Source: a virus (Duplodnaviria; Heunggongvirae; Uroviricota; Caudoviricetes). Taken from it: 64,000 bases of DNA. Below are positions 27,001 to 30,000 of this stretch, piece after piece (the stretch's first letter is position 1; every line of letters starts with the position of its first letter). A program made the position numbers. The stretch is taken from IMG/VR virus record IMGVR_UViG_3300049044_000033, positions 158,796 to 222,795 of that record. One strand, given 5' to 3'.

Positions 27001-30000
27001 ACACCTAAGTGCTGAAAATCCTCGATAAGCTTTTGGTATCCCCTGTAGGAGTCGAACCCACGTTAACAAGGTTAGAACTTGTCGTGCTACCGTAACACTT
27101 AGGAGATATTTTATCTATATAGACAGTTTCAATATTATTGCATTAATTCTATTACCCTTAATAGCAATAAAGAACCGACCGTCTTTTTCTTGTCCGAAAC
27201 AAAAAGGTATTTCAGCAAGGTCAAGATAGACAATCAATCTATCCATCATATCCTTTTGACTGTCTGTGATCCATTCTCCTCCGGGCATCCCCCAGGGGCC
27301 ATCTTTGATTATACCCTGGACCAATTCCGAAAAATACACAGGTATGTATCCTTCAGGGATTATTAGGTCATAAGACAATAGAACAGGAAAATGTTTCCAA
27401 GACCTACGAGTTTTACTTAAATGAAGATTGAATCTTCGGTTAAATTCGATTCTAAATTCCGGAGCCGATTCGCACATAATAGATATTTAACAGACTGTTG
27501 CTAGTTTGTCTATATTGCAGGGGTAGTAGGAATCGAACCCACAAAGACTGGTTTGGAGCCAGCCATGATACCATTTCATCATACCCCTATGGTAAATTCC
27601 CGGAGATTTTCACTCCGACTAACCGCTCGATGCGATCGTGCTCGGCGGGTTAGAGCCCTCCTCCTTACACTAGGAATTTAGGAGGCCCAGAACGAATTGA
27701 ACGTTCACTACTGGCTATTCACACCAGCTTGCTACCACTACAACACAGGCCCGTCCACGTGCTGGGAATCGAACCCAGATCCTCTGGGTGGAACCCAGTA
27801 TGCTAAACCTAACATCATTAGTGGATGGTGGGTGAGTATGGAGTCGAACCATTCCCGTGAGGCGCGGTTTTACAGACCGCTTGCTAGAACCGCTAGCTTT
27901 ACCCACCCATGTGTATTAGAGGACGCCGAGGGAATCGAACCCTTTAACGAAGGCTTAAAAGGCCCTTGCCGTCCCAGACGACTTTCGTTTCAACGTCCAT
28001 GTTGAGTCAGGGTGAAGGGACTCGAACCCCCACGATGTCCTCCTTCCAAAGGAGACAGCTTACCAATTAGCTCACACCCTGATGTGACTTTGTTGGTCGT
28101 TCTACCAAGATTCGAACTTGGATCTGCCGATTATCAGTCGGATGCACTACCATTGTGCTATAGAACGAAGTTGATGAGCAAGTGTTGAGCAGGACCGTTT
28201 ACTAGCCACCGCGACCAGACCCATAAAGTGGATCTGCTGGGAGTCGAACCCAGATCGTTTGATTCAAAGTCAAAGATAACCCTATTCTATCGGCTCATCG
28301 GTGCCTGTGGTGGGGGTCGAACCCACGCTGGATGCGTTCTGAACGCATTGCCTCTACCTTTGGGCTACACAGGCATGTTGTGTGGTGCTCCACCTGGGAC
28401 TCGAACCCAGACCTATACGGTTTTTGAATCCGCTGCCTCTTCCAATTGGGCTAGTAGAGCATCGGGCATATATGCCCTTTGGTGCTCGGAGAGGGGGTCG
28501 AACCCTCGCTGGATACGTCCTCAACGTATTGCCTCTACCTTTGGGCTACCCGAGCATTACGAGGCGTCAATATTAACGACCTTTACTCTTACCTCCCGGA
28601 ACGGTTATGCGGGCGGCCTCGTATCTGTGCTCCTAAGAGGAATCGAACCTCTGCTCCATCCGTACCAAGGATGTGTGCTACCATTATCACTATAGGAGCA
28701 TGTTGATTGTGTCAACGCCTGACTATGAACTCTTTACAATTAGCCGAGTTCGTAATCCAAACAATGCGGTCTCTCGAAATCTCTTCCTCGAAGACCTCAG
28801 CCTTAGCTTTCTTTTCATCGTTGGATTCTTTATTCCACTTGCTATCTCGCATCAAGTCTGCCTTCAAGTTATCACCGTCAGTGATATGTTGGCGTGCCTT
28901 GTTGTAGATATTGTAATATTCAGGCATCTCTTTGTTGCGGACATAATAACGTCCACCAAACTTCAAAAAGCCAGTCGCTTCATACTTTGCGACCAACTTG
29001 TCGATCTCTTCCTCAGGCGTTTCCGGCTTGAGAAGTGATTTCCATTCCAATCCGTAACGCAAACCGGCGAAGAGCTCAGCAGTTCGTTTGTCAGAGGACC
29101 AAGAATGCAGGATGCCTTTTTCCCACGACTTGAAGGAGTCATCTTTAATGATGCCACGGTACAATGTGATCGTCTCTGGCAGCATCTGTCTAATTGGCTC
29201 GAACGCTGTGTGTATTTCCTGAGCAACCTCATCATTGGCCGCGATATGCTGCTCTAGAGCACCACCAGTCCAATTAGCAGTTTCCCAGTGGTCAATAGCC
29301 GACTTTGCGTCATGGCTTAATGCTTGGTAGGCTTTCTTTGCCATACCAAAGACATCTGACTGTGGGGCTCGTTCTAGGATCTCACTGTAGCGCATAATCC
29401 TATTTATGTAGCTGGTGCGGGGGTCGAACCCGCGCTTGATGCGTCCTAAGCGCATTGCCTCTACCATTGGGCTAACCAGCCATGGCGGAAAGCTAGGTAC
29501 TCGAAACCTAAGCCTTGCGGCTCGCACTCCTTAGCAGGGAGGCCCAGCACCTAGCTGGTCAACTTTCCATTGGCCGGTCTCTCCCTGGTGTCACGCCATT
29601 ATGAAGAGCTCTTCCGGCTTACGAGTTGCTAGCGTCGCAGAGCTCGTGAATTACTTTTTGGCGACCTTGACGGGGATCGAACCCGCCTCACTCCGTAGAC
29701 AGCGGAGCAGCCTCACCAGATGCTTCCAAGGCCATTTAGTCTAATGGGCAAGTGTTGCCGAGGATGTTTTTCCTGCTCTACCAACTGAGCTATCTCCCCG
29801 TAAGTGTGAGTGGGGAGAGTTGGATTCGAACCAACGACACGGAGCGTTTCAAGCGATAACCCTTGACTATCGGCCCATTTGACTGTGGAGCATATGGGAA
29901 TCGAACCCATTCTTCCGCGTTGCAAGCGCAGAGTCTAAACCCATTAGATGCCCCATTGGTTCTCTGCTCTCAGAGTGTCAAGCCTGATCTGGCGGCTTTC

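What the first reader, a model, noticed from the sequence alone, without database searches (positions are those of the whole stretch)
29743..29879. Cleanest permuted example: tRNA-Phe(GAA), break at nt 29/30
Joining the pieces gives GGGGAGA-TA-GCTC-AGTTGGTA-GAGC-A-GGA|GC-TT-GAA-AC-GCTCC-GTGTC-GTTGG-TTCGAAT-CCAAC-TCTCCCC-A, with all four stems fully paired. This perfect fit is hard to explain by chance or by decayed tandem genes. The spacer is CTCACACTTAC.
Basis: seen in the sequence. Interest (0 to 1): 0.85.

Follow-up and report, generated by a model that had tools for sequence, protein, structure and literature searches.

The report
Phage Y RNA carrying tRNA-Phe look-alike
The back-to-front tRNA-Phe is real, but it is most likely the tRNA-shaped middle of a Y RNA, a small RNA that docks onto the ring protein Ro60 which this 462-kb phage also encodes, not a split tRNA gene waiting to be spliced.

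Summary
Observation confirmed. On the minus strand, 29854-29811 holds tRNA positions 30-73, then an 11-nt spacer, then 29799-29771 holds positions 1-29. Joined in silico they give a 73-nt tRNA-Phe(GAA) with every stem pair Watson-Crick. A strict scan finds 2 such permuted cloverleafs in the window and none in 200 shuffles.

Interpretation only partly supported. The two flanks recur around 10 elements in this window, three of which have no tRNA part. They form the Ro60-binding stem of Y RNAs. A paralogue passes Rfam's threshold for nematode stem-bulge RNAs, which I recall are Y RNA homologues, and this element is the best sub-threshold YrlA match. The phage encodes a TROVE/Ro60 protein, as do 9 of 10 phage records carrying such RNAs. 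It has no tRNA-splicing endonuclease and no RtcB.

YrlA Y RNAs are already known to hold a T arm, acceptor hairpin and D arm in this order. What differs here is a complete anticodon arm that closes across the break, and the many copies set inside a tRNA array.

This copy is missing from the same site in the closest relative. No RNA data were available. This scan has reported the family before, on this window and on other phages.

The parts
29873..29879 (-). Outer stem P1, 5' strand (AATGGGC); pairs with 29743-29749
   Evidence: RNAalifold on 24 homologues: four of the outer-stem columns covary, e.g. GC/AU 16:8 and CG/UA/AU 14:5:5
29867..29874 (-). Ro60-contact motif GCCGATAG. It is one base off the GNCGAAN0-1G motif of YrlA; paralogues carry GCCGAATG or GCCGAAG
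   Evidence: Motif definition from Chen et al. 2014; G, C, C, G invariant in alignment A1
29855..29863 (-). AGGGTTATC. AGGGT is the 5' strand of inner stem P2. TTATC is the linker that runs straight into tRNA position 30. GGGTTATC is invariant in all 24 homologues
   Evidence: the same GAUGGGUUAUC aligns to the nematode sbRNA consensus in a paralogue
29811..29854 (-). tRNA-like module, positions 30-73: G30 C31, anticodon loop TTGAAAC (29852-29846), 39-43 GCTCC, variable loop GTGTC, T arm (29835-29819), acceptor 3' strand TCTCCCC, discriminator A
29800..29810 (-). 11-nt loop that closes the acceptor stem (CTCACACTTAC). No CCA is encoded. Inferred site of RNase P cleavage at its 3' end (C|G1)
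   Evidence: Sequence. Cleavage is inferred by analogy with M. smegmatis YrlA, which has a 7-bp acceptor stem, is cut by RNase P and gains CCA in vivo
29771..29799 (-). tRNA-like module, positions 1-29: acceptor 5' strand GGGGAGA, TA, D arm GCTC-AGTTGGTA-GAGC, A26, G27 G28 A29. Positions 27-29 pair across the break with 41-43
   Evidence: Closure across the break holds family-wide: 14 of 19 distinct arms reach 5/5 pairs, against 22% with swapped partners
29743..29770 (-). Trailer: linker AAAAC, P2 3' strand ATCCT, internal loop CGGCAACACTT, P1 3' strand GCCCATT. ACTTGC is invariant

Best explanation
The element at 29743-29879 (minus strand) is a Y RNA of the YrlA class encoded by a 462-kb phage.

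Structure. Its 5' and 3' ends pair into a bulged stem (P1, the GCCGAUAG motif, P2, with invariant GGGUUAUC and ACUUGC). This stem is the docking site for the phage's own Ro60 (TROVE) ring protein. The middle of the RNA folds into a complete tRNA-Phe-shaped module: a T arm, a 7-bp acceptor stem closed by a 12-nt loop, a D arm, and a full anticodon arm. The Ro60 stem leaves the module through the 5' strand of the anticodon stem, between positions 29 and 30. That makes a three-way junction, and it is why the gene reads as a 'permuted tRNA'.

Inferred steps. The RNA is made as part of the polycistronic tRNA-array transcript and freed when the neighbouring tRNA-Ala and tRNA-Asp are processed. By analogy with M. 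smegmatis YrlA, RNase P probably cuts before G1, the loop is trimmed, and CCA is added; the phage encodes a CCA-adding enzyme. The result would be a two-piece RNA held together by its stems. The module then serves as a tRNA look-alike that links Ro60 to tRNA-recognising factors. It is not spliced into a free decoding tRNA.

Shown here: the sequence anatomy, covariation of the stems, the family, and co-occurrence with Ro60. Inferred: Ro60 binding, the processing steps, and the cellular role.
For: The flanks are a Y RNA stem:
- The same two flanks surround 10 elements on the minus strand of the window. Three of these are short and lack a tRNA module.
- The paralogue at 13425-13563 passes the gathering score of Rfam RF01656 (39.0 against 38). 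I recall that this family is the nematode homologue of Y RNA. The alignment rests on GAUGGGUUAUC and ACUUG.CCGU.
- This element is the best YrlA (RF02553) match in the window: 39.3 bits, full model, E 1e-5 over 19 kb.
- In an alignment of 24 homologues, 18 of 26 predicted pairs in P1, P2, the T arm and the acceptor stem show compensatory changes.

Ro60 is present:
- The genome encodes a TROVE protein: 138.7 bits, 578-aa open frame.
- 9 of 10 other phage records with these RNAs also encode one, including all 7 that are at least 90% complete. Only 2 of 14 control genomes do.

The literature fits:
- Chen et al. 2014 describe YrlA as a Ro60-binding motif plus a T arm, an acceptor-like hairpin and a D arm in this order. 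[quoted passage not shown]

The module is not a decoder in general:
- Orthologous modules keep the anticodon stem through compensatory changes (GTC/GAC against GCT/AGC; GGA:TCC against AGG:CCT) and keep U33 and R37.
- They vary at positions 34-36: TAG or TGG in one group, GTC, ATC or TCT in another.
Against: - The RF02553 score is well below the curated threshold (39.3 against 69).
- The Ro60 motif in this copy departs by one base from GNCGAA (GCCGAU).
- The Ro60 gene lies about 120 kb away, not next to the RNA as in published cases.
- The nearest-neighbour energy of the drawn structure (-36.1 kcal/mol) is worse than the MFE (-44.9). The MFE refolds the junction region.
- This copy is absent from the same site in the closest relative, where tRNA-Ala and tRNA-Asp are 5 nt apart. 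It is therefore not a conserved necessity.
- A module this perfect, with a Phe-type body and a GAA anticodon, is more tRNA-like than a mere docking surface would need.
Confidence: 0.85

Rival explanations
1. It is a true permuted tRNA gene. The clamp brings positions 29 and 30 together, an unknown nuclease removes leader and trailer, a ligase seals the nick in the anticodon stem, and RNase P with 3' processing removes the spacer. The product is a functional tRNA-Phe(GAA).
For: - The joined product is a flawless tRNA-Phe.
- The breakpoints are exact, and the anticodon stem closes across the break in most family members.
- The phage encodes an Rnl2-type RNA ligase (PF09414, 75.7 bits). From my own knowledge, that enzyme class seals nicks in duplex RNA.
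- The phage encodes a CCA-adding enzyme.
Against: - There is no tRNA-splicing endonuclease and no RtcB in the complete phage genome.
- The junction is a roughly 5x5-nt internal loop next to a 5-bp helix, not a bulge-helix-bulge.
- The flanks are a Y RNA stem that is shared with module-less paralogues and matches the nematode sbRNA model, so they are not a splice signal.
- Orthologues carry anticodons that do not fit their bodies: TGA or TAG on class I bodies, and ATC.
- Other paralogues could not give a tRNA at all: 28283 lacks the 3' strand of the D stem, and 16288 has a bulged acceptor stem.
- Three ordinary tRNA-Phe(GAA) genes already lie in the window.
Confidence: 0.06
2. It is a non-functional relic: a remnant of tandem tRNA-Phe genes, or a recently inserted, decaying Y RNA copy that is no longer used.
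For: - The element is missing from the same site in the closest relative.
- No orthologue with this loop was found among IMG/VR contigs.
- F1 loosely resembles the 5' part of a tRNA; the Rfam tRNA model aligns F1 plus the 3' half at 23.1 bits.
Against: - Every stem is intact, with all 21 pairs Watson-Crick and all invariant tRNA and Y RNA positions present. That is not expected of a decaying sequence.
- The flanks match the family consensus.
- Two independent truncations of tandem genes would not leave an exact 29/30 complement.
- F1 and F2 are too short to be the missing halves.
Confidence: 0.05
3. It is a two-piece, chargeable tRNA mimic. [quoted passage not shown]
For: - It has a 7-bp acceptor stem and A73.
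- It carries most of the positions that I recall as E. coli PheRS identity elements: G34 A35 A36, A73, U20, G10, A26, G44, U45, U60.
- About half of the family's acceptor loops encode CCA right after the discriminator.
- Chen et al. raise possible aminoacylation for M. smegmatis YrlA.
Against: - Nothing here tests charging.
- A helix that branches from the anticodon stem would clash with normal ribosomal decoding.
- The anticodons of orthologous modules are not conserved.
Confidence: 0.04

Closest known systems
YrlA (Y RNA-like A, Rfam RF02553) of bacteria and phages, bound by Rsr/Ro60 (Chen et al. 2014, PMC4201824)
   Same: The ends pair into a Ro60-binding module with a GNCGAA-type motif. 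The middle is a tRNA-like domain in the order T arm, acceptor-like hairpin, D arm. The D arm is the near-invariant GCUCAGUUGGUAGAGC. A 7-bp acceptor stem occurs as in M. smegmatis YrlA, which is cut by RNase P and receives CCA. Both are found in genomes that encode Ro60, phages included.
   Different: It scores below the Rfam threshold (39.3 against 69). It carries a complete anticodon arm (5 bp, 7-nt loop with U33 and A37), where the Rfam consensus has a short internal loop. The published description credits YrlA with mimicking only the D, T and acceptor arms. Both strands of the Ro60 stem resemble the animal type. It is one of 10 copies inside a tRNA array about 120 kb from the Ro60 gene, not next to it.
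Animal Y RNAs and nematode stem-bulge RNAs (Rfam RF01656)
   Same: The terminal stem matches on both strands..CGG.CCG..GAUGGGUUAUC on the 5' side and ACUUG.CCGU on the 3' side. A paralogue passes the family's gathering score. From memory, human Y4 also begins ..GGUCCGAUGGUAGUGGGUUAUC.
   Different: Animal Y RNAs have no tRNA-like module. Here the loop region is replaced by a full tRNA look-alike.
Circularly permuted tRNA genes of Cyanidioschyzon merolae and some green algae and archaea (Soma et al. 2007; recalled, not read here)
   Same: The 3' half lies upstream of the 5' half in one transcript, a short spacer joins the acceptor ends, and leader and trailer pair with each other. Joining the outer ends restores a cloverleaf.
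   Different: Those precursors form a bulge-helix-bulge that is cut by the splicing endonuclease, then ligated into a circle and processed. Here the junction is not a BHB, no such endonuclease is encoded, and the paired leader and trailer form a conserved Ro60-binding stem that also exists without any tRNA.
Two-piece tmRNA from permuted genes of alpha-proteobacteria and cyanobacteria (Keiler et al. 2000; recalled)
   Same: This is a bacterial precedent for a permuted tRNA-like gene. The loop between the 3' acceptor end and the 5' end is excised, leaving two base-paired pieces. The region 29791-29835 gives a weak match to the cyanobacterial tmRNA model (21.6 bits).
   Different: tmRNA carries an mRNA-like tag and no anticodon arm, and it works with SmpB rather than Ro60. 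The match here covers only the T arm and acceptor part.

Membership tests
YrlA-class Y RNA | 5' and 3' ends pair into a stem carrying the Ro60-contact motif (GNCGAAN0-1G / GGUCCGA-like) | tested here: met
   The P1 and P2 stems covary. The motif in this copy is GCCGAUAG, one base off; paralogues carry GCCGAAUG or GCCGAAG. The stem aligns to the sbRNA model on both strands in a paralogue.
YrlA-class Y RNA | Internal tRNA-like domain in the order T arm, acceptor-like hairpin, D arm, with conserved T and D loops | tested here: met
   cmscan alignment to RF02553 over model positions 1-114; ARAGORN cloverleaf of the joined halves.
YrlA-class Y RNA | Reaches the curated Rfam gathering score of RF02553 (69 bits) | tested here: not met
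   39.3 bits, E 1.2e-5 over 19 kb. The extra anticodon hairpin and the different stem cost score.
YrlA-class Y RNA | Ro60/Rsr (TROVE) protein encoded by the same genome, usually adjacent | tested here: met
   TROVE gene at genome 308076-309020(-), 138.7 bits. It is about 120 kb from this element, so the genome criterion is met but adjacency is not. An eleventh Y RNA-like element does sit beside the gene. 9 of 10 other phage records with the RNAs have TROVE.
YrlA-class Y RNA | Physical binding to Ro60 | not testable with these tools
   Needs co-purification or a gel-shift assay.
Permuted tRNA gene (C. merolae type) | 3' half upstream of 5' half; joining restores a full cloverleaf | tested here: met
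Permuted tRNA gene (C. merolae type) | Leader and trailer form a bulge-helix-bulge around the junction | tested here: not met
   The two junctions face each other across single-stranded UUAUC and AAAAC next to a 5-bp helix. They are not two 3-nt bulges separated by 4 bp.
Permuted tRNA gene (C. merolae type) | Splicing endonuclease and RtcB-type ligase available | tested here: not met
   No PF01974 and no PF01139 in the complete phage genome. An Rnl2-type ligase is present. The host is unknown.
Permuted tRNA gene (C. merolae type) | Circular intermediate and mature contiguous tRNA seen in RNA | not testable with these tools
Functional tRNA-Phe | Anticodon and isotype conserved among orthologues and needed by the tRNA set | tested here: not met
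   No orthologue with GAA was found. Related modules change anticodon. Three canonical tRNA-Phe(GAA) genes lie in the window.

The most novel reading that the evidence does not exclude
The phage Y RNAs are interchangeable tRNA decoys or tethers. Each presents a near-complete tRNA, including a true anticodon arm whose three 'anticodon' bases change between related phages, on a Ro60 handle. [quoted passage not shown] It would draw tRNA-directed host factors (anticodon nucleases, synthetases, modification or repair enzymes) onto, or away from, the Ro60-exonuclease machinery during infection. A Ro60-coupled tRNA-mimicry system with a variable anticodon has not, to my knowledge, been described.
Probability: 0.2. 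Interest if true: 0.85.

Novelty: new variant of a known kind. Interest (0 to 1): 0.5.

Why it matters
A scanner that flags 'permuted tRNA genes' in phages or bacteria will often be looking at Y RNAs, and this case shows how to tell the two apart.

The case also stretches the known YrlA design. The tRNA mimic here is complete down to a 7-nt anticodon loop. The Ro60 handle is attached at a different rung of the anticodon stem in each orthologue group (26/27 to 31/32). About ten copies sit among the phage's roughly 55 tRNA genes.

What the tRNA-like half of bacterial Y RNAs is for remains open. A family with swappable anticodon loops and a known protein partner gives that question a concrete set of constructs to test.

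Tried and rejected
1. Brute-force joining of all breakpoints, scored with ARAGORN. ARAGORN accepted hundreds of joins per element with many 'isotypes', so it did not discriminate. I replaced it with an explicit parse and a strict scan with shuffles.
2. Self-cleaving ribozyme or new splice signal in the flanks. I considered this early and dropped it once the flanks matched Y RNA models and turned up on module-less RNAs.
3. Recent copy of a phage tRNA-Phe. The best identity to any of the genome's 62 tRNAs is 74% (to tRNA-Ala), and 66% to its own tRNA-Phe. Among 310 tRNAs from all fetched loci the best is 79%. Only the variable loop and T arm resemble phage tRNA-Phe genes.
4. Orthologues of this copy. 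A DNA search of five related phage records (four of 277-480 kb, one a 40-kb fragment) found only other paralogue types at 70-74% identity. A pattern for the GC-loop-GC hairpin with GAA gave four chance matches in coding DNA.
6. Two reviews (PMC10870794, PMC6047535) are not held, so I could not check whether a YrlA with an anticodon arm has been drawn elsewhere.
7. The thermodynamic fold does not recover the junction as drawn. I do not treat this as evidence either way.

Full report
**Setting.** The window is bases 158796-222795 of a 462,455-bp virus record with direct terminal repeats, rated complete. ARAGORN finds 55 tRNA genes, all on the minus strand between 10.5 and 32.9 kb. Rfam also finds a GOLLD RNA. 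A seryl-tRNA synthetase gene and a tail-fibre gene lie nearby. The finding sits in a 151-nt gap between tRNA-Ala(tgc), which ends at 29885, and tRNA-Asp(gtc), which starts at 29733.

- Read on the minus strand, 29854-29811 is tRNA positions 30-73, 29810-29800 is the 11-nt spacer, and 29799-29771 is positions 1-29.
- The in-silico join is 73 nt. ARAGORN calls it tRNA-Phe(gaa) with all 21 stem pairs Watson-Crick, a 7-nt anticodon loop (U33, A37), a 5-nt variable loop, and the standard D-loop and T-loop invariants.
- A strict scan for permuted cloverleafs finds this element and one other (T stem at 31638) in the real window, and none in 200 dinucleotide shuffles.
- No base is missing or doubled at the break.

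**The flanks are the key.**
- The leader (..GGGCCGAT..AGGGTTATC) and trailer (AAAACATCCT..CACTTGCCC..) are not specific to this element. The same pair surrounds ten elements on the minus strand, with the leader motif at 31666, 31153, 29863, 28283, 25079, 24020, 18660, 16439, 16288 and 13544.
- Three of these are only 65-100 nt long and hold no tRNA module. The clamp therefore exists in its own right.
- Rfam scores the paralogue at 13425-13563 at 39.0 bits against RF01656, above that family's threshold of 38. I recall that RF01656, the nematode stem-bulge RNAs, is the nematode counterpart of Y RNA. The printed alignment rests on GAUGGGUUAUC in the 5' strand and ACUUG.CCGU in the 3' strand.
- The element under study is the best match in the window to YrlA (RF02553): 39.3 bits over the whole model, E 1e-5 for 19 kb, against a threshold of 69.
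- Chen et al. 2014 define YrlA by a GNCGAAN0-1G motif near the 5' end plus nearly invariant T and D stem-loops with an acceptor-like hairpin between them. They report such RNAs in phages. That gene order is exactly 'tRNA 3' half, loop, 5' half'.

**Family and covariation.**
- A degenerate pattern for the two flanks found 40 IMG/VR loci. About 20 are true homologues, mostly in phages of 277-480 kb, and there are also tandem short forms.
- In an alignment of 24 long elements, RNAalifold predicts the outer stem, the inner stem (AGGGU/AUCCU), the T arm and the acceptor hairpin. 18 of 26 pairs show compensatory changes.
- A covariance model built from this alignment finds, in the phage's own genome, the seven long and three short elements of the window, plus one more at 310366-310532 beside the Ro60 gene. 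It finds 5-11 matches in each of five related huge phages.

**Ro60.**
- The phage encodes a TROVE-domain protein (138.7 bits, 578-aa frame) about 120 kb from this element.
- Of ten other phage records that carry these RNAs, nine have a TROVE gene. That includes all seven rated at least 90% complete; the exception is a 60% fragment.
- The same search rings in only 2 of 14 control genomes.
- A phage Ro60 with its own Y RNA-like partners has been characterised structurally for Thermus phage phiLo (PMC12135203). TROVE proteins with 'a tRNA-like partner' are noted in jumbo phages (PMC7824862).

**What differs from classical YrlA.**
- In the Rfam consensus, the stem equivalent to the upper anticodon stem (cgcc/ggcg) runs through a small internal loop into the Ro60 module, with no anticodon loop. 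The 2014 paper credits YrlA with mimicking the D, T and acceptor arms.
- Here, G27-G28-A29 at the end of the 5' half pair with U41-C42-C43. The chain from the leader enters at G30, so G30-C31 with G39-C40 and the loop UUGAAAC complete a normal anticodon arm. The Ro60 stem therefore branches from the 5' strand of the anticodon stem.
- An explicit parse of all modules shows this is a family trait. 14 of 19 distinct arms close with 5 of 5 pairs across the break, against 22% when the 5'-half ends are swapped between elements. U33 is kept in 17 of 19 and a purine at position 37 in 19 of 19.
- The break position is fixed within an orthologue group but differs between groups, from 26/27 to 31/32.
- A distant 91-kb phage (L053, with TROVE) has the same 29/30 design with compensatory changes (AGG:CCT in place of GGA:UCC) and a different loop.

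**Why it is probably not a tRNA gene in waiting.**
- Orthologous modules change positions 34-36 while keeping the stem: GTC-ATTAGGA-GAC against GCT-ATTGGAA-AGC, and GTC, ATC or TCT in the Glu/Asp-like group. Several 'anticodons' do not fit their bodies.
- Some paralogues could not yield a tRNA at all. The element at 28283 lacks the 3' strand of the D stem, and the one at 16288 has a bulged acceptor stem.
- The complete genome has no tRNA-splicing endonuclease and no RtcB.
- The junction is not a bulge-helix-bulge.
- The invariant GGGUUAUC next to the break also appears in the nematode sbRNA consensus as printed, an RNA family that, as I recall, has no tRNA-like module. It is therefore a Y RNA feature rather than a splice signal.
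- Three ordinary tRNA-Phe(GAA) genes are already present in the window.
- I note one ambiguity. The heptamer CUUGAAA recurs as the loop of five other elements, and it also occurs in this one, shifted by one base. The 'GAA anticodon' may partly reflect a family loop motif.

**Points that keep the bolder readings alive.**
- The phage encodes an Rnl2-type RNA ligase and a CCA-adding enzyme.
- About half of the family's acceptor loops encode CCA directly after the discriminator. A similar share of the phage's ordinary tRNA genes does so by eye.
- This module has a 7-bp acceptor stem, the feature Chen et al. link to RNase P cleavage of M. smegmatis YrlA.
- Its variable loop and T arm resemble those of phage tRNA-Phe genes.

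**Origin of this copy.**
- It is not a recent duplicate of any of the phage's own tRNAs (at most 74% identity).
- In the closest relative (465 kb), tRNA-Ala and tRNA-Asp are 5 nt apart, with no element between them.
- No orthologue with this loop was found elsewhere.
- So the copy was either gained in this lineage or lost in the relative. Its flawless state argues that it is in use.
- No terminator-like site lies on the minus strand between the strong one at 32430-32403 and this element, apart from one weak motif inside a paralogue. This is consistent with co-transcription with the tRNAs.

**Verdict.** The 'permuted tRNA gene' reading is only topologically right. The element is a YrlA-class Y RNA with an unusually complete tRNA-Phe mimic. 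An earlier follow-up in this scan reached the same family-level reading for this window (e1-5442258). Similar phage Y-like RNAs with permuted tRNA modules have been reported by the scan on other phages. I reached the reading before consulting those notes, and I tested it here.

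Noticed in passing
window 4703-5152 (-): GOLLD RNA (RF02032), 171 bits against a threshold of 150, full model, a few kb from the start of the tRNA array.
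   Followed up: no
window 25098-24998, 24038-23968, 18680-18615 (-): Three short paralogues with the same Ro60-type stem. Two have no tRNA module. The 25079 element keeps only a T-arm-like hairpin.
   Followed up: partly
genome C1:310366-310532 (-), outside the window: An eleventh element with the GAGCCGAT..GGGTTATC leader and ACTTGC trailer lies just upstream of the TROVE/Ro60 gene. It has a long, non-tRNA interior.
   Followed up: partly
window 30306-30359 (-): A 54-nt match to bacterial 23S rRNA model positions 1095-1146 (23.3 bits, E 0.0012), standing alone between tRNA genes. This may be a mimic of the L11-binding region.
   Followed up: no
window 27034-27107 (-); genome 153582-153658 and 394833-394908: Three tRNA genes with anticodon CTA (ARAGORN labels them 'Pyl'), that is, amber-suppressor-type tRNAs. 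This could mean TAG is read as an amino acid in part of the genome.
   Followed up: no
window 27830-27908, 27921-27998, 15548-15635, 16735-16802 (-): Further weak tRNA-like or tRNA-Sec-like matches that ARAGORN does not call. They may be divergent or degenerate tRNAs within the array.
   Followed up: no
L092 1481-1583 and 1624-1728 (Klebsiella phage KP13-26, OP617743.1, about 71,970-72,220): Two unannotated YrlA-like elements (40.1 and 32.5 bits to RF02553) just upstream of that phage's tRNA array. The T arm, acceptor hairpin and D arm of the first are 87% identical to the module studied here. Its ends differ (an ..ACAGCAA.. type handle) and it has no anticodon loop.
   Followed up: partly
L084 (closest relative, 465-kb phage), locus 1334-1486: The tRNA order Lys-Ala-Asp-Ser is conserved, but Ala and Asp are 5 nt apart. 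The Phe-type Y RNA is an insertion or deletion difference between near relatives.
   Followed up: yes
window 2493-3773 (-), 41817-42767 (-), 52685-53980 (-): Phage-encoded seryl-tRNA synthetase, ADP-ribosylglycohydrolase and glutathionylspermidine synthase homologues.
   Followed up: no
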